Source: Squalus acanthias (lineage: Eukaryota). Taken from it: a stretch of DNA of 64,000 bases. A program made the position numbers and the translations under genes. The stretch lies in assembly GCA_030390025.1 (NCBI GenBank), contig CM059431.1, positions 96,536,001-96,600,000 on the forward strand. Reading direction: 5' to 3'. Within the stretch, counting starts at the first letter, position 1; the number at the start of each line of letters is the position of its first letter. Of the stretch, positions 13,501-52,500 are shown piece by piece. The notes beneath the pieces are model-generated. The model was not told the origin of the DNA. It saw only the letters and a list, made by a program, of their open reading frames with translations, and ran no database searches.

Positions 13501-16500
13501 GATAGAAGAGCAAAAGTGGATTTGGGAACACTTGGAAGGGCAAAGGTCGCAGACAGTCAGCCAATGCACTGGCAGAGGTTGCAATTGGAAAATCTAGTGG
13601 ATTCAGGGAGCCAATAAAGGAGTGGAGAGTCGACTAAGAACCAGTGGCAGTAGATCCAGCACAAGTAAATCCAGGGTCCATCAGAGCTGCAAAGTAGTTA
13701 CAGGTGCTAACAATGAAGATCAGAAGATCCAGAGACCAACAGAGGAGGAGGAGTAAAATCCAGGAGGCTGGAGTACTGAAGACTAGGAAGCTGAAGAAGG
13801 TAGAAGAGTAATTCAGGAGACTGGTGGAGATGAGGAAGTTGTTGGACAGCATGAAGAGCCAGCCAGTGATGAGGAATATCAGAAAGGCAGTATGGAGTGG
13901 AGCAGAGTCCACGGCCACAAAACCTGAGCAGGTAGTGGCATAGCAAAGGTCGTTGAGCAACATCAGCAGTAGAAGCAGTCCAGCGGCAAGTACAACCTAT
14001 TGCTACAGCATTGGACAAAAAGCTAGCAGTACATTGGAGCCAATTTGTGAGGCAATTGAGGCTATTCAACAAGGTAAGGTTGGTGTGAATGTTTTTTTCT
14101 ACTAATGTAGAGCAAGTGTTCTGGGTTTCTTTAATTGGTAAAGTTCAACCACAGGGAGTTTAACTTCAACACGACACTTGGACCCACTTGTAATGGATAT
14201 AACGAAAAAGCAAAAGTGCTTCAAATTCCCTAGGGATTCTATCCAATACTTTGACACAAGAACATCAGAAATAATGGGGACAAAAACCGACCATCCCACT
14301 TTTCCACGGTAACTATGGCAGAGCAGGAATCGCATCCTGCTGGCAACATACGACTTTAACCCTGCTAGCAACCTACAACTCTAACCCTTCTGACGACCTG
14401 CAACCCTGATGTTGACCTGGGACCCTGACTCCACGTGCAACCCTGCTGAGAGTTTCTGGGGCCAGGAAATCAAAATACAGGTAGGCATCGTGCTAGTATT
14501 GGTACATCTTGAGCACCTGCCAGGGAGGTGCAGGGGAGCAAAATGAGGTACTTGCTAGTTGCTTGAGTGCTAAGCAGGTAGCAGCAGGTTTAAACAGTTG
14601 TTTCAATTTGAAATTGTCCCCTTTATACAGGTGTGTTCTTTCCAGGACCTGACCCGAGTTTGGAACATCCTGCGGGCCTCACTTATGCTGCTCCACACAA
14701 CCGAACACCAGTATCTTGCTGGTACCCAATTCATTCGGGTCAGACACAGCAGGAGCAAATGCTGACCCACCGGCCCTGCCTCCTTTGCACACAGGATTCT
14801 AACGGCAGCTGAAACTATTGCCCACTCCGCACTTCCCTCAGAGGAAACTCTCAGGGTCTGCTCTGGGGATTAGACCCGATGTCAACTTTGTCCTATCCCA
14901 TTTCCCATCCCTCACTTGCCCAGATTACTCCCTCGGGCCTGAGGAAATTCAGGGCTAAACTGACTGAGCTGCAGCTATCTGCCAATCACAGAGTAATGGC
15001 TATTTGCTCTCTGTGAGTGCCGCATAATTAAAAGTAATATACAATTCAGTATGTATCCACATTCTTTAAACTTAGCGCTCAATTAATCTGTTGGGTACCA
15101 AACAGCTGTGAATTTTGTGAAACACTGAGCAACATTTCTCCCACAATCTATTTTGTCTTTTACCTGAATGAAAAGCATCAATATGTTCATTGCCAGTTGC
15201 GATGCATTGCACACTCAGACAGCAATTGCTGCTCTCAATTACTGTTAATTTCTGACGCCGTCCACTGAACGTTACCTGAACTTTCTCCACTGCTGTTGGC
15301 CAAAGCTGCCTGCAGATTACTTTTTTAACTACATCCGGAAGGAGGCTGACTGTTATTAGCAGGATAATCCCTAACCAGGCCGGCCCTGTTGAGAGCATCT
15401 GCATGAAGACATAGTACATTCTCTGGTAATTCAGAAACGGCCTGAGAAGAAAACAAACATCATCAAGGAAAAGAAGGGACAGAAAAATCTGCTTTAGAAA
15501 TAATAAGATGTGAATAAATAACGGCGGGGCATACTTCCAGCTCATGCCTGTCTGTAATCTAAAGACCCAATGTTTCATTTGCTGCACCATATTCACAGGT
15601 TTGCCAGCATTGTATGCTGCACTGTGCACATAATTACTGTTCAAATCCAGATTGAAATGGGTGCAGAATACCATCAACTTTCCTTTAGCTTTTTAAGTAG
15701 TTAAACAGTGAGATATCTTGGGACACAGCATATATATACACAACTGCACAACACGGCTTCCAGTAAGAACTGTACTGCCCATGTGCTTTATTAATATACA
15801 TCAGTAGTCCACCAGGTGGCACTATTACATTTCTCCCTCCTTAATGAAGAAGTTAATCAAAGCAAATAACCATTGTACATGACTTGCATGGTATACACAA
15901 CTCTTGGTATACATTTCTCAAATGGAATCCATTTTATGTTTCTAAATTCTACTATAGAATTCTGTTACACAAACAAAAGATATGAACTTATTTTCCATAT
16001 TTACAGATTAAACTTTACCACTGGTTTTCTATTTTGAAGAGGATACCTTCTTTCTTGAACAGAACTTTCAGATCTTGTTGTAGGACTTTGACTCATTCTA
16101 GGCTGAGCCTGGGAAGCATTTTTCTCCAAGGGCTGACCTTGATCTACATTTGGACTCTCTACACTTTCAGACTGTTTGTCTGCCTGACTCGGGCTCAGAC
16201 TTAAATTCTGACTTTGTCTTCGAATTGTTTCTGGTACATCTGATGTAGGTCTTGCTACTGGTACTCTACGTGTAACAAGACTATCTGACTCATCAGAATA
16301 AATTGAATCATCCCAGCTTTCAACTCCTTCCACATCTGTAGGTAAGATATGATCAATGTGAACAAACCTAACCTTTCCATGATCAAAAATCTTGACCAAA
16401 TATGTGCGAGGGCCACATATCTTCACTACTCTTCCTGGTAACCACTTTAACCATTTATGGTGATGGTTCTTCACTCTAACCTCCTGGTTCAACTTCACAC

Positions 16501-28500: not shown

Positions 28501-31500
28501 ACTTGTGCGGTAACTACAAAGTTACTATCAACCAAGCAGTTGACGATGAGCAGTACCCGTTACCTACATCACAAGATTTTTATGCAGCACTCTCTGGGTC
28601 AAAGGTTTTCTCTAAGCTTGACCTGTCGCACGCTTACGCTCAGCTGAATGCTGACAAAGAGAGTCAACAGTATCTCACCATCAACATACACAAGGGACTG
28701 TACTCATACACCAAGCTGCCGTATGGTGTAAAGTCCTCCCCCAAAATCTTCCAGGCTACAATGGATAAGATTTTGCAAGGAATTCCAAATTGCTTATGCA
28801 ATCAAGACGATGTGCTGATCGCAACAAACAGCGAGGAAGAAAATCTAGAAGTGTTAGATTTAGTGCTTCAAAGGATGAATTCCCACAATGTCAAATTGAA
28901 AAGGAGCAAATGTGCTTTTATGCAGCCCGAGTTTGTGCACCTTGGTCTGAAAGTTGATTCAAATGGCTTGCAACCAGTTAAGGAAAAGGTTGATGCTGTC
29001 ATCAATGCTCCAAAAGCACAGAATGTGTCTGAGTTAAGATCTTTCCTTGGAATGGTCCAGTACTACGCACGCTTCTTACCGGAGTTAGCGACCATGTTAG
29101 TTCCAGTGCACGAGCTCCTCAAGAAGGATGTCCAGTGGAAGTGGACAAAAGCGCAACAGGAAGCTTACGACGCTTGTAAGAGAAGTCTCTCTAGTGATGC
29201 TCTCCTTGTGCACTACGACACAGAGCGCGAGCTTAAGTTAGTGTGTGATGCTTCTAGCTATGGTGTGGGAGCTGTCATAAGCCACATAATGGATGACAAC
29301 CAAGAGAAACCAATCGCGTTCGCATCGCAAACCCTCACAAAGAGCGAAAGAAACTATATGCAAATTGAAAAGGAAGCACACACCATAGTGTTTGGAATCA
29401 AGAAATTCCAACAGTTCCTGATCAGCAGAAAGTTTACCCTGATAACCGATCACAAACTGCCCCTAGCAATATTGGGGTCCAAATCTGCCATCCCTGCAAT
29501 GGCCGCATCAAGAATGCAACATTGGGCAATGTTGCTGTCACAATATGACTACACGATTGAATATCGCACTTCAAAGCAAAACGCAATCGCAGATGCCTTG
29601 TCCAGGTTGCCACATGAAGACTCGTGTTGGAAGCGAAGGTGAGATTTTCATGCTAGGTGCAGTAGACAAAGACTTTCCCGTGAATGCAACTGAGATTACA
29701 AATGAGACTCAAAAAGACTCAGTACTGAAAAGAGTGTATGAAAACACCTTGAATGGATGGACTGATCAGTGTCTGGACACAGAGTTGAAACCATTCCATA
29801 ACTGTCAGACTGAATTGTTTTGTGAGCAAGGTTGTATCAAGTGGGAAAACAGAGTGGTGGTACCTAATTCTTTGAATTTGAAACCAAAACAAAACAGCCC
29901 GAAAATTAGTTTAACACCAAAACTTTTTGTAAGGAGATTAGGAAGGCTCTGGTAAACCTGATATTAAACAGGATTTGTAGTTCATTTGCAGCATCTGTAG
30001 TTGATTTAAAAGAAAAAAAAGCCAGGAGTTTTTGTTATGTGGTACATGTAATGCTGGTACCATAGTCTTGTTGTATTTGAGAGGGGAATAGAGTCATAAC
30101 GGCTGAGAAGGAGGCTATTCCGAGAGATACAGGGGGGATGTGAGGAAAAACTTTTTTACACAGCGAGTGGTGATGACCTGGAATTCGCTGCCAACAGAAG
30201 TGGTGGAAGCGGAGACATTCAATGTTTTCAAGGGGAGACTGGATAGGCACTTGAGGGAAATAAACTCGCAGGGCTATGGGGATAGAGCGGGGGAATGGGA
30301 CTGACTGGATTGCTCTAGAGAGAGTCGGCATGGACGGCCTCCTTCTGTGCCGTTATGACTCTATGACTCTGACATCCCCCCCTGTATCTCTTGCCCAAAA
30401 CCTTAAATCTGTGTCCCCTAGTCCTTGTACCATCAAATAGTGGGAACAGCCTTTCCCTGTCTAGCCTATCCAAACCCGTCATAATCTTGTACACCTCCAT
30501 CAAATCGCCCCTTAACCTCCTTTGCTCTAATGAAAACAAATCCAGCTTCTCCAACCTGTCCTTGTAGCTAAGATCCCCCATCCCCGGATCCATTCTGGTA
30601 AATCTCCTCTGCACCCTCTCAAGGGCCTTCACATCCTTCCTAAAGTGTGGTGACCAGAACTGGACGCAGTACTCCAGGTACATTTTTTTTTTAAAGGGGA
30701 AAAGCAGTGTAATGTATTATCACATGGTTTGTCACATGGTTTGGTAGGAGCATGCTCAGTTCTCTCTTGCCTAGTAAACAGCCACCTTGACTAAGAGAGA
30801 ACACAGGATGGTCTAAGATAGGTTTACAATGTACGTGTGTAAACACACGAAGCATGGTAAATAAGATTGGTGAGCTGCAGGCGCAAATAGCCACATGGGA
30901 ATATGATGTCATGGCAATAACGGAGACTTGACTCAAAAAAGGGCAGGATTGGGTATTAAATATTCCTGGATATAAGGTGTTCAGGAAAGATAGGAAAGGA
31001 AAGAAAGGTGGCAATATTGGTTAAGGAGAATGCTACAGTGCTGGAGATAGTGTATGTCCTGGAGGGGTCAAGGACAGAATCTATATGGCTAGAGTTAAGA
31101 AATAATAGAGGTGCCATTACACTACTAGGTGTATTCTATAGGCCACCAACTAGTGGGAAGGATATAGAGGAGCAAATTTGCAGAGAATTAGAGAGAGATG
31201 CAAGAACTATAGAGTAGTGATAATGGGGGACTTCAACTATCCTAATATAGACTGGGATAGTAATAGTGTAAAGGGCAGAGAGGGGGAAGAATTTCTGAAG
31301 TGTGTTCAGGAGAACTTTCTGGATCAGCATCTTTCTGGCCCAACGAGGAAGGAGGCATTGCTGGATCTGGTTCTGGGGAATGAGGTGGGTCAAGTAGAGC
31401 AAGTGTCAGTCCGTGAATATTTAGGGAACAATGATCATAGTATCATAAGGTTTAGATTAGCTATGGAAAAGGACAGGGAGCAATCTAGAGTAAAAATACT

Positions 31501-34500
31501 TAATTGGAGGAAGGCAACTTTCAGTGGGTTGAGAATAGATCTGGCCCGGGTAAATTGGAATCAAAGATTGGCAGGCAAAAATGCAATCGAACAATGGGCT
31601 ACCTTTAAAGAGGAGATGGTTCAGGTACAGTCGAGGTACATTCCCACGAGGGGGAAAGGCAGGGCAACTAAAGTCAGAGCTCCCTGGATGATGAAAGAGA
31701 GAGAAAGATGAAGCAGAAAAAGAGCGCGTATGACAGATGCCAGGTCGAGAATACATCTGAGAATCAGGCTAAATATAGGAAGTTCAGAGGAGAAGTGAAA
31801 AAGAAAATAAGAGGGGCAAAGAGAGGGTATGAGAATAGAATGGCAGCTAACATAAAAGGTAATCCAAAAGTCATCTATAGGCATATAAATAGTAAACGGG
31901 TAGTAAAAGGAGGGGTGGGGCCGATTAGGGACCAAAAAGGAGACCTATGCATGGAGGCAGAGGGTATGGCTGAGGTGCTAAATGAGTACTTTGCATCTGT
32001 CTTCACCAAGGAAGATGCTGCAATAGACATAGTGAAGGAGGAGGTAGAGGAGATACTGGATGGGATAAAAATTGATAAAGAGGAGGTACTGGCTGGCTGT
32101 ACTTAAAGTAGATAAGTCACCAGGACCAGATGGGAAACATCCTAGGACACTGAGGTAAGTGAAGGAAGAAATCGCGGAGGTACTGGTCATAATCTTCCAA
32201 TCCTCCTTCGAAACAGGGGTCGTGCCAGAGGACTGGAGAATTGCAAATGTTACATACTTGTTCAAAAAATGGTATAAAGATAAACCCAGCAACTACAGGC
32301 TAGTCAGTTTAACCTCTTCTAATTGTAAATGGAGAACAACGAGTCTGAGTGGGCAATGCTTTCTTCAAAAGATGGCTATATTTCTAAGTTTGCAGGCTCT
32401 TGTGAAAGTGATATAAACTAACATACCTTAAGAGTTACTGTAAATACCAACACAGTGAAAACCAGGGTCCCAAACGTCCAGTTTCCAAACATCTGAAAAG
32501 ATAAATTTTTACAGATTTAGAATAAATCAGTAAGCAGATGAGTTTTAGTACCTTATTCTGTCCGTACAACAGCTGTGCAGAGGCCTGCAGTGTGCCAGCT
32601 CCTGATAGAAACAGTCCATTATACCTGGCGTGTAAGTAGTCCATCCATTTTGATTGTAAAGCCAGCAATTCGGACTTCTCATTAATGCATCAATAAGTGT
32701 TTGACAAGTTTTGGGTGGTGATTGTAACTGGGAGCTGGTTACGGGCGGGCACGGAGCGAGGTTAGCATCAAACTCCCCCAACATCAATTTGAGGCCTGGC
32801 CTATATTAACTCTTGGGCCTCATTCACATGCCGCTGGCCAGCTGCTCACCTGAGGCAGGTGTACGGAGGTGGTTACCTGGCCTCCCAGCTGAGACAGGTG
32901 TACTGAGGCGGTTACTTGGCTGCCCACCTGAGGCAGGTGTACTGAGGCGGTTACCCGGCTGCCGGCAGGTGAAGGTCAGGTGGTTCAGAAGCCATGGCAG
33001 GTAAGTCACGGGGGGGTAGTTTGGCAGGGTTTCGCAGGCGGGGAGTCCGAGGCAGCAAAGGCATAAAACGTTCCTTGTAGGGTACTCATGACCCTCCTCT
33101 CCCCACCTTTGGGGGGTTCTATATCTTCCCTGACAGGTATTACTGAGCAGGGTCCTAATAACATCATAGGACCCCACTATGCACGTATTAACGAGGCTCC
33201 AGCCTGAGTCAGACGGATGCCTTGGCCACCGACCCAAAGGATGAGATATTAGGACAGGTAACCAAGGGCCTGGTCATACAGGTAGCTTTTAAGGAGGAGA
33301 GAGAGGTGGCGAGGCAGAGAGGTTTAGGGTGGGAATTCCAGAGCTTGAAGCTGAGGCAGCAGAAGGCACGACCGCCAATAGTGGAGTGGAGGATGTGCAA
33401 GAGGCTAGAGTCAGAGGAAAGAGAGTTCTTGGGGGGGTGGATATTGTAGGGCTGGAGGTTACAGAGATAGGGAGAGTGGAGGCTATGAAGGGATTTAAAC
33501 ATGAAGATGAGAATTTTAAATTTGAGGAGTTGGGAGACTGGGAGTCAATGTTGTTCAGCAAGCACAGGGGTGATGGGTGAATGAGATTTGGTGCAAGTTA
33601 GGATACGGGCAGCAACGTTTTGGATGAGTTGAAGTTTACGGAGGATGGAAGGTGGGAGGTCGGCCAGGAGAGCGTTGGAATAGTCTAGTCTAAAGGTGAT
33701 AAAAGCATGGATGATGATTTCAGCAGCAGATGAGTTGAGGCAGGGGTGGAGATAGGCGATGTTATGGAGGTGGAAAGGATATGGGTTGGTAGCTCAGCTC
33801 AGGATGCTGAGGTTACAAATAGTCTGGTTCAGCCTGAGATAGTAATACCATTAGAGTGTGACATCATAATACTGAGAGTGTGAGCAACCGCACGGCTGTT
33901 TGCCGGTCCCGCACAGCCCGGGACTGCCATTTCACATGGGAATTTTTGCGCATGTGCAAAACTTTGAATGGGCCTTGCAGCCCGATAAAGGGGCTGCACA
34001 CCCAAAAAGAATTAGGGGAACACTGAATGCGAGATAGTGAAACAGTGGCCAGGGAGGGGAATTGGAATTGGCGAGAGAATGGAGTCTGTGGTGGGGTCAA
34101 AGACGACGATTGGAGGAAGTTCCCACTCACCAAGGACTGGATGTTGGACAGTCTGACAGAAGATCCCCTGGCACTATTTCGAAGAAGAGTAGGGGTGTTC
34201 TCCCCGGTGTCCTGCCCAATATTTATCCCTCAATCAACATCACTAAAACAGATTAACTGGTCATTATCACATTGCTGTTTGTGGGAGCTTGCTGTGCGCA
34301 TTTTGGCTGCCACGTTTCCTACATTACAACAGTGACTACACTTCAAAAGTACTTCATTGGCTGTAAAGCGCTTTGAGACATCTGGTGGTCATGAAAGGCG
34401 CTATATAAATGCAAGTCTTTCTTTCTTTACAATCTCACACTGTCGTGGGATTAATGTTGGCTAGAACCTTTTCTTCACCATCTCTATTACCAAATGTGTC

Positions 34501-37500
34501 CCTTTACTCTTTTCCCACAGATGACTGGAAAATGATTCTGTACCAGTTTAGGTAATCTACCTAATAAGACTCAGTTTTATTTGAGGAGTAAATTAAACAT
34601 TTATGCAGAAAGAGAGTTTACACCCACTAACCAACCCACTACTACTTTTGAGAAACAGAATCTCCACTCAGAAGTAATCACGTCAGTCAGAAAGTGTCTA
34701 ATGTATGTTGCCCAAAAATGAGATAAAGACAAGGTGAAAGAGAGAGAGAGATCTTACCATGTTCAAGTTGGCCCTCATTAGCTGGTGTTAGAAAGAGAAG
34801 CAAACAGCAAAAGCAAAAAATACAAGACAGAAAGTAAATTAACAGGGCAAAAAAAAGCACAGAATTGTTAAGTAAATTAACAAGGCAACAAAACCACAAC
34901 AGAAATATTACTGCGTAAACTAACAGAGCAAAAGTGAGCAGGTAATGGTCAGAAAAAAATATATTTTCCTTAGGCAAGTATAAAAATATCTTAATGGGCA
35001 GGCACTAGAATAAACTGTAAAATTAAATGGGTCATTAAATGATTTATGTAAAATATTAGAGATATATTGCTACAGTAAGAGCTTCAACAGGCAAGAAGAG
35101 TGGCAGACTGTTAGAACGCGATCACCTTATTCTGATGTAGTTGAGGTAGTTTACTAACCTGCCCATTGCTGGTCATGGTTGAATTGTCAAACAGAAAATA
35201 AGCACCAAAGAAAAATACCATAGCATCAAACGCTCCCAGGAACGTCCAGTAAATGAACAACTTCCAACATAACAAGGAATTTTTGGCAATATCCCTGGTG
35301 GTTGAGAAGAAAAGTATTGAAATTGCATTGTTTGCTAAGGTCATTCAGAGAATCCAGATGAACTCTATAGTTATGTGACATGTTTGCCCTTTTGATTTAA
35401 GCTGTACCCTTCATTTTATTTGAATTTGTTCTTGGGATACGAGTGAAACTGGCAAGGGAACATTTCTTGCCTTGAATAACTGAGTGGCTTGCTAAGGATA
35501 TTAAAATCATCAAATAGTGTGGGACTGGTGTCATGTGTAAGCCAGGCCGGGTAGCGTTATGGGGCAAGTTCCCTTCCCTGAAGGGCATTAGTGACCCAGG
35601 TGGATCATTAAAAAAATCAGATGCTTTCATGGTCGTTGTTCTTCAGGTGCTAGCCCAAAAATTACCAGAGTTATTGAATTCAGTTTCACAGTTTGCCATG
35701 GTGGAATTTTAACACTCGACCTCTAGCTGCTAGCCCAGGTTAATAGCCACTGCAGCACTGTAACATTCACTTTGTGACATATTTGTCTGATTAAAGAATA
35801 CTGTGCTTTTTACTTAGCTGAAAGCACAAAATCCAGATAATTTGGTCCATAAAATTATTGGAAAAGCTTAATTTCCTACAGTATTTCAAGCTCTCAAAAT
35901 GAAGCATACTGAACGATATACTTTATTACACACTGATACAATAGCAATTGTCTTACAATTACTTAGCTCAATTATGTTTCACCTGGTGCATGGAGAAGGA
36001 TAGAGGAGTTGAAAGAGTTCAGAAGGTGCGAGCCCCCCTTTAGCATAAGTCATTTGCCAAGAGACTCTCTGTTTTGGGTTTATTTCTGGAGTGTCTGTTC
36101 ATGGTAATACAAACATATCGCAGCCAAGTTGGAAGAATCCTGAAGATTTTTTTCCAAATTGGGGCACTTTCTACAGTCTATCAATTCCTATTGGTTGGGT
36201 GGGAAGATCTAACTGCTGCCACAGAAGGTGGGTTCAGATTCAGAACTTAAGAGCCCATTCGGCCCTTCGCCCTATGCTGGTTGCTAACTCTTCAGCTTGA
36301 GCTGTCTATTCGAATCCCCTTTCCCTGTCCTTTCTCTGTATCCTTTCAAATACTTATCCAATTCCCCTTTAATTGATAGTGGATTAATCTCCTTTCTCTG
36401 TGTTGCTTCGCTGCAACAGGGGAAATGGCCTGAACTTTGCTTGTGCTAAGGAATATCAGAAGACAGAGATTGGGCACTTGTTCATGGAGAGCAGAACATA
36501 ATTCTTTCGATTTTACGAGGAGGCCTGAAAGATTGAGCATTGAAGATGATGCTCAAGGTGAGACACCTTCACCAAAAGAAACTCACACTGTAATATATTT
36601 GCCAGCTATCTGGTCGATCAATTCTTTCAGCTCATACTCTCATTTCACTAGTGGGCTGCCTTTCATCTGTAAGCTTGACACATCCTACCGCCTTTAGGAA
36701 TTCAACGCATCAAGTTAAAGATAAATTAATTAAGTCCTGCGCTTCCGGTGGACGAACTGTGCTTGAAGGGCTACAGCACTTAGAGCATGTTTACCCCCAG
36801 CTGCATAGCTTGCTGAATTTACTCTATAATGTTCCATTAAAAGAACACTGTAGCAATCGCAACATGTACCGTGTGCTCATGGCCTCTAAGCTCACCTGTA
36901 TAATGATGGGTCTCTTTTCAGTGCATCAATACTGACATGTTGTTCCATAAGGCTGTACAACAGGATGGGAAGAGAGGTGAAGCTGATGTTGTACAATGTA
37001 AGGTAGGCAGTGTCATACAATGGCTGTAAAGGAAGACATTTTCAATTATTTTGTATACTTCCAAAATATCAATATAAAGGCTAACCTGCACTCCCAGCAG
37101 GGGCGGTGGGCACAGAGAGCACGGGTTGGAGATCGGGACATAAGTGTTGTAGCCTTATCTCTGACCCAGCCTCCCTATCAGCATGGCTCATCACCAGGAG
37201 GACACAATTCATAGAATGGTTACAGCACGGAAGGCGGCCATTCGGCCCCTCGAGCCTGTGCCGGCTCTCTGCAAGAGCGCTTCAGCTAGTCCCCCTCCCC
37301 CTCCCTTTCCCTGTAGCCCTGCAGATTTTTTTCTTTCAGGTACTTATCCAACTCCCTTTTGAAAGCCGCGATTGAGTCTGCATCCACCACCCTTTCAGGC
37401 TGTGCATTCCAGAACCTAACCACTCACTGCGTAAAAAAGTTTTTCCTTACATCGCCTTTGGTTCTTTTGCCAATCACCTTAAATCTGTGTCCTCTGGTTC

Positions 37501-40500
37501 TCGACCCTTCTGCCAATGGGAACAATTTCTCTCTATCTACTCTGTCCAGATCCTCATGATTTTGAACACCTCTATCAAATCTCCTCTCAATCGTCTCTGC
37601 TCAAAGGAGAACAACTCCAGCTTCTCCAGTCTATCCACGTAACTGAAGTCCCTCATCCCTGGAATCATTCTCGTAAATCTTTTCTGCACCCTCTCTAAGG
37701 CCTTCACATCCTTCCTAAAGTGTGGTGCCCAGAATTGGACACAATACTCCAGTTGAGGCCGAACCAGTGTTTTATACAGGTTCATCATAATTTCCACGCT
37801 TTTGTACTCGACACTTCTATTTATGAAGCCCAGGATCCCATAAGCTTTCTTAACTGCTTTCTCAGCCTGCCCTGCCACCTTCAACGATTTGTGCACATAT
37901 ACCCCTAGGTCTCTCTGTTCATGCACCCCCTTTAGGATTGTACCCTTTAGTTTATATTTCCTCTCCTCATTCTTTCTACCAAAATGTATCACTTCGCACT
38001 TTTGTGTGTTAAATTTCCTCTGCCATGTGTCTGCCCATTCCACCAGCCTGTCTCTGTCCTCTTGAAGTCTATCACTCTCCTCCTCACTGTTCACAATACT
38101 TCCAAGTTTTGTGCCATCTGCAAATTTTGAAATTGTGCCCTGTACACCCACATTAATATATATCAAGAAAAGCAGTGGTCCCAGAACCGACCCCTGAGGA
38201 ACAGCACTGTATACCTTCCTCCAGTCCAAAAAATAACTGTTCACCACGACTCTCTGCTTCCTGTCACTTAGCCAATTTCATATCCACTGTCCCTTTTATT
38301 GTATGGGCTTCAACTTTGCTGGCAAGCCTATTATGCGGTACTTTGTCGAATGCCTTTTGGAAATCCATATACACCACGTCAACCGTATTTCCCTCATCAA
38401 CCCTCTCTGTTACTTCATCAAAAAACTTGATCGAGTTGGTTAAACACGATTTGCCTTTAACAAATCCATGCTGGCTTTCCTTAATTAATCCACACTTGCA
38501 TAATTATCAACAACAACTTGTATTTATAAAGCACCTTTAAAGTAGTAAAACGTCCCAAGGCGCTTCACAGGAATATAAGACAAAAATTGACACCGAGCCA
38601 AATAAGGAGAAATTAGGACAGATGACCAAAAGCTTGGTCAAAGAGGTAGGTTTTAAAGGAGGAAAGAAAGGTAGAGAGACAGAGATCTTTAGGGATGGAA
38701 TTCCAGAGCTTAGGGCCGAGGCAACAGAAGGCACGGCCAACAATGGTTGAGCGATTATAATCAGGGATGCTCAAGAGGACAGAATTAGAGGATCGCAGAT
38801 ATCTCTGGGGGTTGTGGGGCTGAAGGAGATTACAGAGATAGGAAGGGGCGAGGCTATGGAGGGATTTGAAAACAAGGATGAGAATCCAAAAATCGAGGTG
38901 CTGCTTAACCGGGAGCCAATGTAGGTCAGCGAGCACAGGGGGTGACGGGTGAACGGAACTTGGTGCGAGTTGGACACGAGCAGCCGAGTTTTGGATGACC
39001 TCAAGTTTATGCAGGGTAGAATGTGGGAGGCCAGCCAGGAGTCATTGGAACAGTCAAGTCTAGAGGTAACAAAGGCATGGATGAGGGTTTCAGCAGTGGA
39101 TAAGCTGAGGCGGGGCGGAGATGGGCGATGTTACAGAGGTGGAAATAGGCGGTCTTAGTGATGGCGTGAATATAGGGTCGGAAGCTCACTTCAGGGTCAA
39201 ATATGACACCAAGGTTGCGAACAGTGTGGTTTAACCTCAGACTGTTTTTGGGGAGAGGGATGGAGTGAGTGGTTAGGGAATGGATTCGGTCTTCCCAATA
39301 TTTAATTGGAAAAAATTTCTGCTCATCCATTACTGGATGTCAGAGACCATGGAGGGGTTGAGAGAAGTGGTGGTGAGCTAGAGCTGGGTGTCATCAGCGT
39401 ACATGTGGAAACTGACGCTGTGTTTTCGGATGATGTCGCCAGGGGCAGCATGTCGATGAGAAATAGGAGGGGGCCAAGTATAGATCCAGGATAGAACGAT
39501 GCGGGAGCAGGAAGAGAAGCCATTGCAGGTGATTCTCTGGCTACGACCAGATAGAGAAGAATGGAACCAGGCAAGTGCAATCCCACCCAGTTGGACCAAT
39601 GAGAGGCATTGGAGGAGGATGGAGTAGTCAACCATGTCAAAGGCTGCAGACAAGTTAAGAAGGATGAGGATGAATAGTTTACCTTTGTCACAGACACAAA
39701 GGATGTCATTTGTGACTTTGACGAGAGCCGTTTTGGTACTGTGGCAGGGGCGGAAACCTGATTGGAGGGATTCAAACATGGAATTGCGGGAAAGATAGGC
39801 ATGGATTTGGGAGGCAACAACACATTCAAGGACTATGGAGAGGAAAGGGAGGTTGGAGATGGGGGCGGTAGTTTGCAAGGCCAGAGGGGTCAAGGGTTGT
39901 TTTTTTGAGTAGAGGGGTGATGACGGCAGATTTGAGGGAATAGGGTCTCATGGACAAGATGAGCGCAGAGAGGTCATGAGGGGAGATCGGAGAGAAACTG
40001 GAAAAAGATGAGAGTTCAGGGCGAGGGCAGGGAGGAACCTTAGAGGAAGTCTGGCCCTGTGGGCTAGGGGAAGGAAGGGAAGTGGCAGCAGCCGCTGAAA
40101 GGATGGTCTCAATCTTAGAGACAAAGAAGTCCATGAGCTCCTCACACTTATTGACGGAGGTGAGGGTGGAGGAGACAGGGGAGAGCGGTTTAAGAAGACG
40201 GCTAGCCGTAGAGAATAGAAGCCAGAGTTTATCTTTGTATTCCAGAATGATTCTGGAATAGTGAGCAGTTTTGGCAGACGAGAGCAGAACTTATGCTTTA
40301 TGTGGTCCAGCCAGATCTGGCGATGAATGGCTAAACAATTGCATAATTATCCCTCTAGCTTACTAGCAATAGAACTGCTCCAGGCAACAGGAAGTTTGTG
40401 AATGATTAGGGAGATTGGTGCGTTTCCACCAGTAATCTCTATTTAACAATTGTAACAGAACTTTTCAGAGTAACTACAAACTTGAGAAAGTTCAAAACAC

Positions 40501-46500: not shown

Positions 46501-49500
46501 ATGTGCTCATTACTGACAACCCGTTTCCTGATCAACAAAGACTGCAACCGTGCTCCTTCCCTGTGTGATTGGCTAAGCTCACAGCAACGCTTCACTTCTC
46601 AAGCACAGAATGATGCAATGGTACGAAATGGAGCAGAGTACTAACCTGCTGAGAAAATCCACAAAAGAACTGGTACAAAAACTGAGGAAATATGAAGCAA
46701 ACATTCTGGAAAACAACAGAAATATGTGATGAGATAATTAAAACACCACAAACAATGACATCAGATATATTTCAAACCTACACTTATTTAAGACTGCATT
46801 CACTTTCAATGTACTCATGAGACCATCTCCTTTAGCTGATGGATTAGCAAAGCTGGGAAAATTTACAGTGGATGATTTTAGCTGGAGTACAGAAAGATTG
46901 CATGTTGCTTTTTTCACTAAAATTATCAACAGGAAAGTTGGTATTGAAGCCCTGAAAGGAAACACAGTAAAATATATGCAGCGGGAAGGCAGGTGATGCT
47001 ATTGGAGCAAGATTCAAAAAAGAGCTCCTGTCCAAACAACAGCAGAACCAAAGACCAACCAGCAGGAGGTGAAACAAGTACAAATCAATTATATTCCAGT
47101 AAGGAGACAAGAAAACGTACTGAAGGCCAAGTGTCTGGATGAATAGGGACACAAGATCAAAATAAGTATTTCACACTTTATACATGAGACAAGTGGAGTA
47201 CGAAAGACCAAGAGACTGGAGCTTACCCTCAACAGGAGTTCCGCCTGAAAGTGCAGTGGGCCTAAAATTATGCTTGAGGGGTTAAATAACTAAACAACAA
47301 TAACAACTTGCATTTATATAGCGCCTTTAATGTAGTAAAACATCCCAAGGCGCTTCACAGGAGCGTTATCAGACAAAATTTAACACCAAGCCATATAAGG
47401 AGATATTAGGGCAGATGATCAAAAGTTTGGTCAAAGAGGTAGGTTTTAAGAGCGTCTTAAAGGAGGAGAAAGTGGTGGAGAGGTTTAGGGAGGGAATTCC
47501 AGAGCTTAGGGCCTCGACAGCTGAAGGCACGGCCACCAATGGTTGAGTGATTAAAATCAGGGGTGCGCAAGAGGCCAAAATTGAGGAGCGCAGAGATCGC
47601 GGAGGGTTGTCGGGCTGGAGGAGATTACAGAGATAGGGAGGGACGAGACCATGGAGGGATTTGAAATCAAGGATGAGAATTTTAAAATCAAGGCATTGCT
47701 TAACCGGGAGCCAATGTAGGTCAGTGAGCACAAGGGAGATGGGTGAACGGGACTTGGTGCAAGTTAGGATATGGGCAGCAGATTTTTGGATGTCCTTAAG
47801 TTTATGCAGGGTGGAAGATGGGAGGCCGGCATTGGAATAGTCAAGTCTGGAGGTAACAAAGGCATGGATGAGAATTTCAGCAGCAGATGAGCTAAGGCAA
47901 GAGCATAGTCAGGCAATGTTACAGAGTTGGATATAGGCAGTCTTAGGGATAGCATGGATATATGGTCGGTAGCCTATTTCCGGGTCAAATATGACACCAA
48001 TTTGCAAACAGTCTAGTTCAGCTTCAGACAGTTGCTAGGGAGAGGGATGGAGTCAGTGGCTCAGGAACGGAGTTTGTGGCGGGGACCGAAGACAATGGCT
48101 TCGGTCTTCCCAATATTCAGTTGGAGGAAATTTCTGCTCATCCAGTACTGGATGTCAGACAAGCAATCTGACAATGTAGGGACAGTGGAGGGGTCGAGAG
48201 AAGTGGTGAGGTAGAGCTGGGTGTCATCAGCATACATGTGGAAATTAAAAAAGAGTCAGACTGTGACCGGGGGGGGGGGGGGGGGGGGGGGGGGGAGAGA
48301 GGGGTTCAGCCTGTGCTGCGAGGGGGAGAGGGGTGGGCGGGGGGGGGGGGAAGAGAGCCTGTGACAAGGGGGGGGGGGGAGAGCCTGTGCTGCGAGAGGA
48401 GAGGGGGGGAGGGGGAGGGGGGTCAGCCTGTCATGGGGGTGTAACTGCCGGTGTGCGCGGTCCTGGATGCTGTGTGTGTCTGAGATGCCCTGGTGTAGGA
48501 GTCTCTCCGACTGCTCGCAGTCAAGCTCATGGTTCGTGAACTCCAGGAGCTGGAATCCCTCAGTCAGGTGATCATCTTGCAGACAGCGCGAGTCAGTGAG
48601 GGGGGGAAACAGGTGACTGTCCATCTGAGTGGGAAGAGTGAACAGGAGGCAGTGCAGGGGTCCCCAGGAGTGTTAAATTGACAAACAGCGATTCAGTGCT
48701 GAGTCCCTGTGACAATATCAACAACTCGTAGGAGGAAAACTGGGTGCAAAGAGGCTGCCAAAGGGTGAGTGAGGTGCAGAAACGCAGCAGCAATTGGAGA
48801 TTGCAGTCAGGGAACAGACAGGGGCTTTTGCTGCTGCCACTGAGGGTCTTGAATGGCGGCTTGCCTCCAGCTGCCAGGGTAACGGCGGGGGGGGGGGGGA
48901 ATGACAGAGCAGAAAGGAAAGCAAAAGGGACAAAGAGCACTGGAAGACAGGGGGTCGCTTTCTGATCAGGCACTAGTCAGGCAGTCTGTATTAGCACTCC
49001 TCTAACCGTCAGTGTGCTGACCCCAACAGCAGGGTCATCATTATTTACTGGATGGTGACAGTAGAACCTGACCCCATGTCTGGATAATGTTTCCAAGGGG
49101 CAGAATGTAGATGAGGAAAAAGAGGAGGGGCCAAGGATGGATCTTTGGGGGACTCCAGAGGTGATGTTATGGAGGCAGAAGCCATTGCTGGAGATGCTCT
49201 GGCTATGATTAGATAGTAAAAGTCGAACCAGGCGAGTGCAATCCCACCCAGCTGGACAACGGAGGAGAGGCGTTGGAGGAGGATGGTGTGGTCAACCATG
49301 TCAAAGGCTGCAGACAGATTGAGAAGGATGAGGAGGGATAGTTTACCATGGTCACAGTCACAAAGGATGTAATTTGTGACTTTGATAAGGGCCATTTCAG
49401 TGTTGTGGCAGAGATGTAAACCTGATTGGAGGGATTCAAACATGGAGTTGCAGGAAAGATGGGCACAGATTTGGGTGGCAACAACACATTTAATAAGTTT

Positions 49501-52500
49501 GGAGAGGAAAGGGAGGTTGAAGTTGGGGTAGCAGTTTGCAAGGACAGAAGGGTCAAGGGAAGGTTTTATTTGAAGATGTAGTGTGATGGCGGTTTTGAAA
49601 GTGAGAGGGACAGTAGCTGAGGGGAGGGGAACCATTTACAACATCATCTAGCATGGGCACCTGGAAAGGAAGCTGGATGGTCGACAGTTTAGTAGGAATA
49701 GGGTCAACAGAACAGGAGATGAGCTTGGAGAGGGCATGAGGGAAGATAGAGAAACGCGGGTTCAGGGCTAGGACAGGGGGAGCCTGGAGGGAGGTTTGGC
49801 TCGATAGATAAGGGGAAAGAGAGAATCATCAGAGGCAGGTGAATGCATGGTCTAAATCTTAGTGATAAAGTTCTCCATGATCTTCTCGCACTTGTTAGAG
49901 GTGAGGGTTGTGGGGGTGGGGAGAGAAGAGAAGAGAAGCCGGGGGGTTATCTTTGCATTTCAGGATGATCCTGGAGTAGTAGGGAAGAGGTGTGGGAGCT
50001 CCAGAAACCTGATTGGAGTGATTCAAACATGGAGTTGCAGGAAAAATGAGCACAGATTTGAGAGGTGAAAACACGTTCAAGGACTTAGGAGAGGAAAGGG
50101 AGATTGTAGATGGGGTGGTAGATTACAAGGATGGAAGGGGTCAAGGGTGGGCTTTTTGAAGAGAACGCTGATGAAGGCAGTTTTGAAAGGGAAGGGGACA
50201 GTACCTTAGGAAATGGAACTTCTTGCAATGTCAGCTAGGATGGTGGCTATGAAGAAAAGTTGGATGGTCAGCAGTTTAGTGGCAATGTGGTCAAATGAGC
50301 ATGAGGTGGGCCTCATGGCGAGATGAGCTCGAAGAGGGCACGAGGGGAAATAGGAGAAACATGGGAAAGATGCGAGTTCAAGGCTAGGGTGGGGTGAGGC
50401 TTGGGGGTTAGATACTAGAAGAAATGTAAGATTTACAATAGAGGATAGAACAGATGGTTGAAAAACTGTCAAATTCACTTCCAAGGTTAGAAACACAGGA
50501 AAGTTTTTCAGCCATTCAGCCCCTCAAGCTTGTTCTGCCCCGTGATTAGATCATGGCTGAAATGTACCTCAACTCCATTTACCTGCTTTTACTCCATATC
50601 CCTTGATACCTTTACCTAACAAAAATCTATTGATCTCAGTCTTGAACATTTCAATTGACCCCCAACATCCACAACCTATTGGGGAGTGAATTCCAGATTT
50701 AAACTATCCTTCATCAGATCAAGTGCTTCCTGATTTTGTTACTGAACGGCCTAGTTCTAATTTTAAGATTATGGTTGAGGCAGAAACAGTGTCAATATTC
50801 AAAATTAGATTGGATAGGTGGCTGAAAGAAAAGGGGCTGAAGAGATATGGGAACAGGATGGGTAAACGTGATTAGACTATCTCCTCATGTGGAGGGTAAG
50901 CATTGACACATACTCGGGCCGATGACCAGTTTCTGTGTTGTAAGCTCGATGCACGTATTTCTATGTACAAACCACTTATAATGGGTAAATTTAAAGGGAT
51001 GCAGCATCTTAAAAAACCATCAGCATTTGAGGATAAAAATGTTGATAGCTTTTAGGTGTTTGGGCTACTGTTGGCAGTGCCCACTCTACAGTGCATTTTA
51101 GCTGCAGGTATCTTTTCAGCAGATGGCTGTTTGCTGAATCAGAGTCAATGTAGCCAGTTCCACACAGTAATTGCCAGGTATGTGCAGATTGACCTGTGTG
51201 GGAGGTGTACACAGTCTGCCTCTGTGTCCCTGACTTGTCTGGCATCCCTCCATTGCTCTGCGTCAAAACTGGGTATCATCAGCAGCAGCAATAACCATCT
51301 CCAACTTAAGAAAGCCTAACCATCTCACCTTGGCATTCAATGACATTATCACCCAATCTCCCACCATCACCTCCAAAAAATTTCACGAAAGAGGAATTCA
51401 CAACGGAAAACCCATTGTCCCAATACTGAGGATGTACCAAAAAATGTACGTGCCAGAACACTTGGCACAACTAAATGGAAACAGTAAGAGAAACAAAAGA
51501 AAGAAAAAAGGCTCCAAAATAGCCTTAAAACACTGTACACATCTTACAATAGGGCTGCTTAAATGCACTTCTGTAAAAGGACACCCTAACAGCCTTGGAC
51601 AGGCATTTTATAAAGGCGGGTAGGTAATGGAGCACTATACCAGGTGAAACACTAGTTCATTAATCCTCAAAGCCAAGAAACCCAACGCCATCCAGGACAG
51701 AGCAATTTGCTTTGATCAGAAACCTATTTCACCCCCCTCAGGATGTGGGTGACAATGGCTCAGCTGCATTCATTACCCATCCATAGTTGCCCCAAGGTGG
51801 TGGCAGTGAGCCTTCTGCTCAACCACTGCAGTCCTTGTGGTGATGGAGCTCCTACAATGGTGTTAGGCATGGAATTCCAGATTTTGATCCAGTGCTGACC
51901 AAGGAACAACGTATGTCCAAGTCAGGATGTGTGAGATTTGGAAGGGAACTTGAAAGTTATGGTGTTCCCATGACATTGCTACTCTTATCCTTCTTAGTGG
52001 TAGAGATTGAGGGCTGGAAGGGTTTTGAGATTCTTGAAATGTGTTGCAGCTGCATCTGTCCAGTGAGTGGTGAGTGTCCCATTACACTCTGACTTGAACC
52101 TTGTAGCTGGTGGAGAGGCTTTGAGGGGCACCCAGCCTCTGCCTTGCTCTTGCATCTAATATGTTGATGTGGCTAGTCTAGTTAAGCTTTTGGTCAGTGG
52201 TGATCCCCATGTTGTTTGAGGGACCTGGTGATGGTGATATCGTTGAAATTCATGGGAGGTAGTTGGGTGTTTTTATTAAGATAACTAACAATAAATTGGC
52301 CACCGTGTCTGGTGCCAGTGAAACCCACCTGAAAATGAGATGGGATGGTAATAGGGCAAAAATTTCACTTAACAGATTGTTGTCCACTTCTCCAATTGTT
52401 TGCCAATTTTATGCCTGATTAATATCAATTTAGAAAGAAACTGAGGCAGAATAATTGTCAGTACGTAGAGTGCCAAATACTAACCATCATAGCACATTTA

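What the first reader, a model, noticed from the sequence alone, without database searches (positions are those of the whole stretch)
34758..34781. Candidate 24-nt microexon in the TM7-TM8 exoplasmic loop of ATP11A
Seen: a long TE-free pyrimidine-rich tract with several UGC motifs (ttttgcttttgctgtttgcttctctttctaacaccag), then 24 stop-free nt (LMRANLNM) and a strong GTAAGA donor, between two phase-0 exons. Established: upstream UGC motifs are the SRRM3/SRRM4 neural-microexon signature, and the TM7-8 loop of P4-ATPases faces the CDC50 beta subunit. Inference: a tissue-regulated 8-aa insert that could tune CDC50A binding or trafficking. It is absent from the human reference protein as I recall it; I recall similar inserts in some non-mammalian ATP11A proteins but cannot verify that here.
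Basis: partly seen in the sequence, partly recalled or inferred. Interest (0 to 1): 0.7.

Follow-up and report, generated by a model that had tools for sequence, protein, structure and literature searches.

The report
Conserved ATP11A microexon, shark copy
This 24-base stretch is a genuine and very old mini-exon of the lipid-flippase gene ATP11A that adds eight amino acids to an outward-facing loop. It is already catalogued in human, mouse, chicken and zebrafish as an eye- or nerve-specific exon, so it is real but not new.

Summary

Splice signals alone are weak evidence, since 13 decoys of equal quality lie on this strand. Three other results settle it:
- **Annotated isoforms.** 63 of 217 ATP11A proteins retrieved carry an 8-aa insert at exactly this junction, from sharks to mammals. 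Six catshark and zebra-shark isoforms carry the identical peptide.
- **Spliced contig.** One contig in public run X7 (a relative; library type only guessed as RNA) joins 35159 to 34781 and 34758 to 32492, both at GT..AG.
- **Published tables.** Supplements list a 24-nt ATP11A exon as retina-enriched in human, mouse and chicken (PSI 83-95 in retina, at most 2.5 elsewhere). They list it as neural in zebrafish and as raised by SRRM4.

The acceptor has the SRRM3/4 layout: three UGC at -34, -28 and -21 and a 129-nt AG-free tract. A confident AlphaFold model places the insert in the TM7-TM8 loop, with low confidence for the insert itself.

Tissue bias in this shark and any effect on CDC50A remain untested. 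The novelty class is already known.

The parts
35159..35294 (-). Upstream constitutive ATP11A exon (encodes TM7 and the start of the TM7-8 loop, ends ..TSNGQ). Its donor feeds the microexon.
   Evidence: tblastn of shark ATP11A isoforms; acceptor refined; joint at 35159.
34782..34910 (-). AG-free, pyrimidine-rich acceptor region of the microexon. It holds three UGC motifs (34815-34813, 34809-34807, 34802-34800, i.e. -34, -28 and -21) and branch-point-like TTAAC at -90, TTAAT at -61 and -99, and CTAAC at -10.
   Evidence: AG-exclusion zone 129 nt, against 15-59 nt at the 8 other acceptors. It is the only one of 1,935 YAG sites with both a zone of at least 129 nt and at least 3 TGC within 40 nt.
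34758..34781 (-). 24-nt phase-0 cassette microexon encoding LMRANLNM.
   Evidence: sequence; both joints in one contig of run X7; orthologous 8-aa inserts, with the identical peptide in 6 isoforms of Scyliorhinus canicula and Stegostoma tigrinum.
34752..34757 (-). Donor GTAAGA. With the exon's last base it matches 7 of 9 consensus positions.
   Evidence: joint 34758->32492 with GT..AG ends.
34740..34751 (-). (CU)6 run directly after the donor. It is a candidate PTBP-type silencer; this role is inferred, not tested.
   Evidence: Run X7 has a 2-nt deletion here, so the length of the run varies between relatives.
32427..32492 (-). Downstream constitutive exon (MFGNWTFG.., start of TM8).
   Evidence: joint at 32492.

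Best explanation
The segment is the shark ortholog of a gnathostome-wide, alternatively spliced 24-nt microexon of ATP11A. The same event is most likely VastDB HsaEX1005044 / MmuEX0006735 / GgaEX0024944 / DreEX0015646.

Shown here:
- It is spliced in at 35159->34781 and 34758->32492.
- It adds eight residues between TM7 and TM8, lengthening the exoplasmic loop from about 12 to about 20 residues.
- Isoforms with and without it are annotated in several sharks and rays.

Inferred from cis-elements and from ortholog data:
- Inclusion is switched on by the eMIC-domain factors SRRM3/SRRM4, acting on the UGC motifs in a long AG-free pyrimidine tract with a distal branch point.
- The strong donor helps to define an exon too short for ordinary exon definition.
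- The (CU)6 run after the donor may help to keep it skipped elsewhere.
- Inclusion is therefore expected mainly in photoreceptors and/or neurons.

Inferred only: the longer loop, which sits under the CDC50A ectodomain, modifies assembly, trafficking or kinetics of the flippase complex in those cells.
For: - Orthology: 63 of 217 retrieved ATP11A proteins have an 8-aa insert exactly at NGQ^[MIV][FL]GNW. They include teleosts (LMTTNTQM, 26), mammals (IMTTNTHM, 12), and gar, lizard and alligator (LMTANTHM, 11).
- Cartilaginous fish: of the 86 cluster members and representatives examined, 22 carry an 8-aa insert and 4 a 7-aa insert, in 8 species. Six carry the identical LMRANLNM. 44 lack an insert, often in the same species, so the exon is alternative.
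- Splicing: run X7 has one contig (depth 56.7, shorter side 24 letters) with both joints at CT..AC on the + strand, which is GT..AG on the gene strand.
- Tissue data (Ciampi 2022, PMC9303857, Dataset S1): retina PSI is 82.6, 94.6 and 95.1 in human, mouse and chicken, against 0.18, 1.94 and 2.5 in other tissues.
- Regulator data (held file 7 of the same paper): SRRM4 over-expression gives dPSI 5.6-33.5 in seven cell lines, SRRM3 gives 2.2, and MSI1 gives 0.
- Zebrafish (PMC12626424 supplements): the 24-nt exon is classed MIC_Neural (dPSI 76.9) and is linked to HsaEX1005044.
- Cis-elements match the published microexon architecture (passages, abstract).
- Topology: the AlphaFold model has mean pLDDT 82.7, helices at 961-987 and 1008-1030, and the insert at 997-1004 in the loop.
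- CDC50A contact (passages of PMC12494553): ATP11C binds CDC50A closely through its exoplasmic loops.
Against: - No RNA from this species was seen. Runs X1, X2 and X5 gave only intron and repeat pieces.
- X7 is a relative (intron pieces 94-97% alike). Its library type is only guessed to be RNA, so a processed retrocopy cannot be formally excluded. Its tissue is unknown.
- Identity of the human, mouse and chicken catalogue entries with this exon rests on gene, length and the position of the only 8-aa insert seen in mammalian, bird and fish proteins. Their genomic coordinates could not be checked against sequence here.
- Tissue bias differs between zebrafish (neural) and tetrapods (retina), so the state in sharks is open.
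- In zebrafish the column dPSI_eMIC_Z is only -8.3, and human SRRM3 over-expression gave only 2.2. Dependence on these factors may be partial.
- No annotated isoform carries the insert among the 12 Callorhinchus proteins that could be read at this junction, nor in several sharks.
- The insert itself is modelled at pLDDT below 50, and nothing here tests CDC50A binding.
Confidence: 0.8

Rival explanations
1. The exon is real but is not controlled by SRRM3/4 or restricted to neural or retinal tissue in sharks. Some other program would control it (for example relief of PTBP repression alone, or MSI1), or it would be the major form in many tissues.
For: - A contig with inclusion at depth 56.7 appears in a sample of unknown tissue.
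- Many annotated shark and fish 'X1' isoforms include the exon.
- A (CU)6 run follows the donor, and UAG motifs lie at +58, +114, +117 and +129.
- Responses to regulators are weak: human SRRM3 dPSI 2.2 and zebrafish dPSI_eMIC_Z -8.3.
Against: - In all four species with tissue data the exon is sharply tissue-restricted.
- MSI1 over-expression gave dPSI 0 in human cells.
- The acceptor carries the UGC and long AG-free layout.
- Isoform numbering by NCBI does not reflect abundance (my knowledge, no call).
Confidence: 0.12
2. The exon is constitutive in this species, that is, always included.
For: Only the included form was seen among the listed joints of run X7. No 35159->32492 joint is listed, but 83 further joints were not shown.
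Against: - Insert-less isoforms are annotated beside insert-bearing ones in Heptranchias, Scyliorhinus, Chiloscyllium, Hemitrygon and Rhinoraja.
- The nearest relative by exon identity, Pristiophorus, has only insert-less models.
- Contigs drop minor forms, so absence of the skipped joint says little.
Confidence: 0.05
3. It is a chance pseudo-exon that is never used in this genome.
For: Thirteen decoys of equal splice-site quality lie on the 64-kb strand. No RNA of this species was laid.
Against: - The peptide is identical to annotated catshark and zebra-shark inserts at the same junction and 7 of 8 identical to Heptranchias.
- Both junctions are used in a close relative.
- The acceptor architecture is unique among 1,935 YAG sites.
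Confidence: 0.02

Closest known systems
VastDB events HsaEX1005044 (human), MmuEX0006735 (mouse) and GgaEX0024944 (chicken): the ATP11A 24-nt retina-enriched microexon ('RetMIC') of Ciampi et al. 2022 (PMC9303857, Dataset S1; seen in supplements; sections 8 and 9 read)
   Same: Same gene and same 24-nt length. Mammalian and bird proteins carry their only 8-aa insert at the same NGQ^xFGNW junction. UGC-rich upstream intron. Responsive to SRRM4.
   Different: The peptide differs: L-M-R-A-N-L-N-M here, against [LI]MT[TA]NT[HQ]M in bony vertebrates. Retina specificity has not been shown for any shark. The catalogue coordinates were not compared with sequence here.
Zebrafish atp11a DreEX0015646 (PMC12626424 supplements)
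   Same: A 24-nt cassette placed close behind the upstream exon (561 nt there, 377 nt here). The authors link it to HsaEX1005044 as conserved and regulated.
   Different: It is classed as neural rather than retina-only, and whole-larva PSI reaches about 85 by 5-7 dpf. This shows that tissue breadth has shifted between lineages.
NCBI Gnomon isoforms of elasmobranch ATP11A, e.g. Scyliorhinus canicula X1 (XP_038674757.1), Stegostoma tigrinum X2 and Heptranchias perlo X1 (names; peptides)
   Same: Identical (LMRANLNM) or near-identical (LMRANTNM, LLRANLNM, LMRAKLNM) insert at the same junction, with insert-less sister isoforms.
   Different: Different species. Rhinoraja longicauda models a 7-aa version (LMKANLM).
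Solved ATP11C-CDC50A complexes (6LKN, 7BSP and related)
   Same: Closest solved relative of the host protein. The same TM7-loop-TM8 segment aligns over 95 residues.
   Different: ATP11C chains have no insert; the alignment places an 8-residue gap between ..ENGK and VYGNW. No ATP11A structure, and no insert-bearing form, is among the hits.

Membership tests
SRRM3/4 (eMIC)-dependent vertebrate microexons | Length 3-27 nt and frame-preserving | tested here: met
   24 nt, phase 0 on both sides, no stop.
SRRM3/4 (eMIC)-dependent vertebrate microexons | UGC motif(s) between the pyrimidine tract or branch point and the AG | tested here: met
   UGC at -34, -28 and -21, against 0-1 within 40 nt at the 8 other acceptors. 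67 of 1,935 YAG sites reach 3. The criterion comes from passages of 10.1101/2024.09.17.613571 and section 9 of PMC9303857.
SRRM3/4 (eMIC)-dependent vertebrate microexons | Pyrimidine tract and branch point displaced from the AG (long AG-exclusion zone) | tested here: met
   The AG-free zone is 129 nt, which 3 of 1,935 YAG sites reach. Branch-point-like motifs lie at -61, -90 and -99. The branch point itself was not mapped.
SRRM3/4 (eMIC)-dependent vertebrate microexons | Inclusion rises with SRRM3/4 and falls on their loss | not testable with these tools
   Only ortholog data are available: human dPSI 5.6-33.5 with SRRM4 and 2.2 with SRRM3; dPSI_eMIC_H 48.7 and dPSI_eMIC_Z -8.3.
Retina-enriched microexons (RetMICs, Ciampi 2022) | High PSI in retina and near zero in other tissues, including most neural tissue | not testable with these tools
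   No RNA holder is on record and sample names are coded. The one spliced contig comes from an unknown tissue. The feature is met in human, mouse and chicken but not in zebrafish, where the exon is classed neural.
Orthology with the catalogued ATP11A 24-nt exon | Same gene, same intron, same length, homologous peptide | tested here: met
   63 of 217 proteins have an 8-aa insert at this junction and nowhere else at it. Conserved positions are 1 (L/I), 2 (M/L/V), 5 (N/S) and 8 (M). Genomic coordinates of the catalogue entries were not checked.
P4-ATPase ATP11A (host gene) | Sequence identity to annotated ATP11A and the P4-ATPase domain set | tested here: met
   The exon is 96% identical to shark ATPase IH. 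Hits carry PF16212, PF00702, PF13246, PF16209 and PF00122. phmmer to ATP11C structures gives E = 0.
P4-ATPase ATP11A (host gene) | Insert lies in the TM7-TM8 exoplasmic loop | tested here: met
   Hydropathy cores lie at about 962-986 and 1010-1030. The AlphaFold model has helices 961-987 and 1008-1030 as the 7th and 8th membrane helices, with the insert at 997-1004 between them. The exoplasmic side follows from the known 10-TM topology (established knowledge).

The most novel reading that the evidence does not exclude
The eight-residue loop extension creates a photoreceptor- or neuron-specific ATP11A-CDC50A complex with altered assembly, sorting or phosphatidylserine-flipping behaviour. [quoted passage not shown] Sharks could then show whether the ancestral pattern was retina-only (as in tetrapods) or neural-wide (as in zebrafish). 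No main-text treatment of this exon was found. A 2025 P4-ATPase review has no occurrence of 'microexon'.
Probability: 0.2. Interest if true: 0.6.

Novelty: already known. Interest (0 to 1): 0.27.

Why it matters
As a discovery it adds little. The exon is in public gene models, including sharks with the identical peptide, and in published microexon tables.

Its value is as context. It shows that this flippase microexon and its SRRM-type acceptor layout are present in cartilaginous fish, which supports an origin before the split of jawed vertebrates. ATP11A loss destroys photoreceptor outer segments in zebrafish (abstract and passages of PMC12148042). Yet the retina- or neural-specific isoform has apparently never been studied functionally. 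The exon is therefore a small, well-defined handle on cell-type-specific flippase biology.

Tried and rejected
- **Sequencing runs.** 11 runs were listed and no RNA holder is on record.
- **Laid runs X1, X2, X5.** They gave only intron and high-copy-repeat pieces and no cover of the flanking exons. They say nothing about splicing or expression.
- **First AlphaFold job.** 45 close ATP11A sequences gave mean pLDDT 47, with the whole region 810-1041 below 50. I discarded it. Its helical reading of the insert is not used.
- **Oversized alignment.** A 63-sequence one was used instead.
- **Supplements and papers.** MicroExonator supplements (PMC7821500) have 0 occurrences of Atp11a. Irimia 2014, under the PMC id I recalled, is not held. 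The ATP11C crystal-structure preprint has no occurrence of my loop terms. A search for 'TM7-8' with CDC50 gave only an unrelated Plasmodium paper.
- **Search for the insert in paralogs.** Among 50%-identity cluster representatives, the two closest non-ATP11A representatives (P0294, P0299) lack it, and most other P4-ATPase representatives align with an 8-residue gap there. One representative per cluster cannot exclude minor isoforms.
- **Paralogs in Ciampi Dataset S1.** It lists no ATP11B event and only a 16-nt chicken ATP11C event.
- **Repeat origin.** ARAGORN found no tRNA-like origin for the intronic repeats.
- **Earlier scan notes.** Nothing relevant.
- **Complex prediction with CDC50A.** Not attempted.
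Full report
**What is in the sequence.** On the minus strand a pyrimidine-rich tract ending in CAG is followed by 24 nt at 34781..34758 that read LMRANLNM without a stop, and then by GTAAGA. The exon upstream ends at 35159 with a complete codon (..TSNGQ). The exon downstream begins at 32492 (MFGNWTFG..). tblastn with shark ATP11A isoforms maps the gene's exons on this strand at 59047-58867, 58103-57999, 53037-52892, 46711-46646, 37023-36895, 35294-35159, 32492-32427, 21226-21122 and 15441-15276. With a catshark isoform as query, tblastn also picks up the 24-nt segment itself.

**Is it more than chance?** The splice signals alone are only weak evidence.
- The 2,666-nt intron has 215 AG..GT pairs 3-30 nt apart, and 56 are in frame and stop-free.
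- Only this one also has a donor matching at least 7 of 9 consensus positions, at least 75% pyrimidines upstream, and YAG.
- However, 13 pairs of the same site quality, in any frame, occur on the 64-kb strand.

The acceptor context is much more distinctive. Its AG-exclusion zone is 129 nt, against 15-59 nt for the eight other ATP11A acceptors in the window. Three UGC lie at -34, -28 and -21, against 0-1 within 40 nt elsewhere. Of 1,935 YAG sites on the strand, 3 have so long a zone, 67 have three UGC within 40 nt, and only this site has both.

**Evidence from relatives.** A search with the upstream exon returned ATP11A (ATPase IH) proteins. The best hits were sharks at 96% identity. In the two searches together, the junction NGQ^[MIV][FL]GNW reads as follows in the 217 proteins:

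| Class | Proteins |
|---|---|
| 8-aa insert at the junction | 63 |
| No insert | 104 |
| A single L (a low-quality model) | 1 |
| Could not be read by my pattern (mostly fragments) | 49 |

- The inserts fall into lineage types: LMTTNTQM in teleosts (26), IMTTNTHM in carnivores, bats and a capuchin (12), and LMTANTHM in gar, a lizard and alligator (11). Further variants occur in platypus, birds, frogs, sturgeon and paddlefish, guinea pig and a mouse species.
- A rat partial protein reads IMTTNTSM and then runs into the intron.

For cartilaginous fish I examined 86 cluster members and representatives:

| Class | Proteins | Notes |
|---|---|---|
| 8-aa insert | 22 | LMRANLNM, identical to the window, in 5 Scyliorhinus canicula isoforms and 1 Stegostoma tigrinum isoform; LLRANLNM in two Chiloscyllium species and Hemitrygon; LMRAKLNM in S. 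torazame; LMRANTNM in Heptranchias |
| 7-aa insert | 4 | LMKANLM, Rhinoraja longicauda |
| No insert | 44 | often the same species as insert-bearing isoforms |
| Single L | 1 | Pristis, low-quality model |
| Unreadable by my pattern | 15 | |

No insert-bearing model was listed for Callorhinchus (12 readable), Heterodontus, Carcharodon, Cetorhinus, Pristiophorus, Hemiscyllium, Amblyraja, Leucoraja or Hypanus. The exon is therefore real, alternative, and already in public gene models.

**Direct splicing evidence.** No run is on record as RNA. Four coded runs were laid on window 32300-37100 at 90% likeness.
- Run X7 gave joints 35159->34781 (skips 377) and 34758->32492 (skips 2,265).
- Both joints have CT..AC ends on the + strand, which is GT..AG on the gene strand.
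- Both have one contig, the same depth (56.7) and a shorter side of 24 letters. This indicates one contig running upstream exon, microexon, downstream exon.

Several caveats apply.
- X7 belongs to a relative: its intron pieces carry 6-12 differences per 180-320 nt.
- Its library type is a guess and its tissue is unknown.
- The other three runs covered only intron and repeats, so they say nothing.

**What is published.** In the held library, no main text links ATP11A with microexons or SRRM3/4. A 2025 P4-ATPase review has no occurrence of 'microexon'. The supplements do list the exon.

Ciampi et al. 2022 (PMC9303857), Dataset S1, lists a 24-nt ATP11A exon as a retina-enriched microexon:

| Species | Event | PSI retina | PSI other tissues | PSI neural |
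|---|---|---|---|---|
| Human | HsaEX1005044 | 82.6 | 0.18 | 1.2 |
| Mouse | MmuEX0006735 | 94.6 | 1.9 | 13.5 |
| Chicken | GgaEX0024944 | 95.1 | 2.5 | 17.8 |

- Held file 7 of the same paper gives dPSI 5.6-33.5 on SRRM4 over-expression in seven cell lines, 2.2 for SRRM3 and 0 for MSI1.
- The exon is not in their zebrafish retina list.
- The supplements of PMC12626424 class zebrafish DreEX0015646 (24 nt) as a neural microexon (dPSI 76.9). They link it to HsaEX1005044. Whole-embryo PSI rises from 0-19 at 12-32 hpf to about 85 at 5-7 dpf.
- I read sections 8 and 9 of Ciampi et al.. They report UGC enrichment upstream of such exons and argue that the retina program predates jawed-vertebrate divergence.
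- That these catalogue entries are this exon rests on gene, length and the single insert site seen in proteins. I could not compare their genome coordinates with sequence.

**How it most likely works: splicing.** The acceptor layout matches what is described for SRRM3/4-dependent microexons. The pyrimidine tract and branch point are displaced from the AG, which leaves room for a UGC-containing enhancer bound by SRRM3/4 and contested by PTBP1 and others (passages; abstract). The features found here are:
- three UGC motifs;
- branch-point-like motifs at -61, -90 and -99;
- a strong donor;
- a (CU)6 run at +7 to +18;
- UAG motifs from +58.

I infer SRRM3/4-driven inclusion in photoreceptors and/or neurons, with default skipping elsewhere. 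None of this was tested in this species.

**How it most likely works: protein.**
- Hydropathy and a confident AlphaFold model (mean pLDDT 82.7, pTM 0.82) place helices at 961-987 and 1008-1030 of the catshark isoform. These are the seventh and eighth membrane helices.
- The insert, residues 997-1004, lies in the loop between them. Residues 999-1005 fall below pLDDT 50, so its conformation is not predicted.
- Solved ATP11C-CDC50A chains lack the insert; the alignment places an 8-residue gap at the site.
- ATP11C is reported to bind CDC50A closely through its exoplasmic loops, with TM7-10 acting as a static support domain (passages of PMC12494553).
- CDC50A ectodomain mutations are reported to alter ER exit and substrate affinity (passages of PMC11775268).

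An effect on complex assembly, sorting or kinetics is therefore plausible, but it is inference only. Zebrafish atp11a mutants lose photoreceptor outer segments (PMC12148042), so the gene matters in the tissue where tetrapods include the exon.

**Verdict.** The exon is not new. What remains open is its tissue pattern in sharks, which would show whether the ancestral state was retina-only or neural-wide, and what the eight residues do.

Noticed in passing
window 33266-33748 and 34071-34553: High-copy repeats lie in the same intron, about 200-1,500 nt downstream of the microexon. Summed contig depth is 10^3 to 4x10^5 in all four laid runs, with many loose ends. ARAGORN finds no tRNA-like part. 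They are probably SINE-like elements.
   Followed up: partly
window 37537-38277 (-), 39378-39947 (-), 31154-31711 (+): LINE fragments in the neighbouring introns: RVT_1 (E 1.7e-7 and 2.4e-7) and an Exo_endo_phos_2 endonuclease domain (E 1.2e-12).
   Followed up: partly
proteins P0251-P0254 (Rhinoraja longicauda): This skate's models carry a 7-aa (21-nt) version of the insert, LMKANLM, so the microexon length is not fixed at 24 nt in all cartilaginous fish.
   Followed up: no
window 46646-46711 (-); protein P0003: Heptranchias isoform X4 lacks the 22 residues ([20 protein letters not shown] region, part of TM5) that this 66-nt exon encodes. That model skips a transmembrane-coding exon and looks non-functional or mis-modelled.
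   Followed up: no
PMC9303857 Dataset S1, chicken sheet: Chicken ATP11C has its own retina-enriched microexon of 16 nt (GgaEX1009807; PSI 47 in retina, 0.4 elsewhere). Its length would shift the frame. No ATP11B event is listed.
   Followed up: no
PMC12626424 supplements; window below 15276: Zebrafish atp11a has a second neural-enriched exon of 90 nt near the 3' end (DreEX0015647, linked to HsaEX0006764). The C-terminal exons of the shark gene were not found in the window by tblastn, and I did not look for an ortholog of this exon.
   Followed up: no
protein P0007 (Pristis pectinata, 'LOW QUALITY PROTEIN'): This model has a single extra L at the microexon junction (..NGR-L-VFGNW). It looks like a gene-model artefact at this site.
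   Followed up: no
window 4001-14000 and 48001-50000: There is a strong positive GC skew on the + strand (0.24-0.40) over long stretches. The cause was not examined.
   Followed up: no
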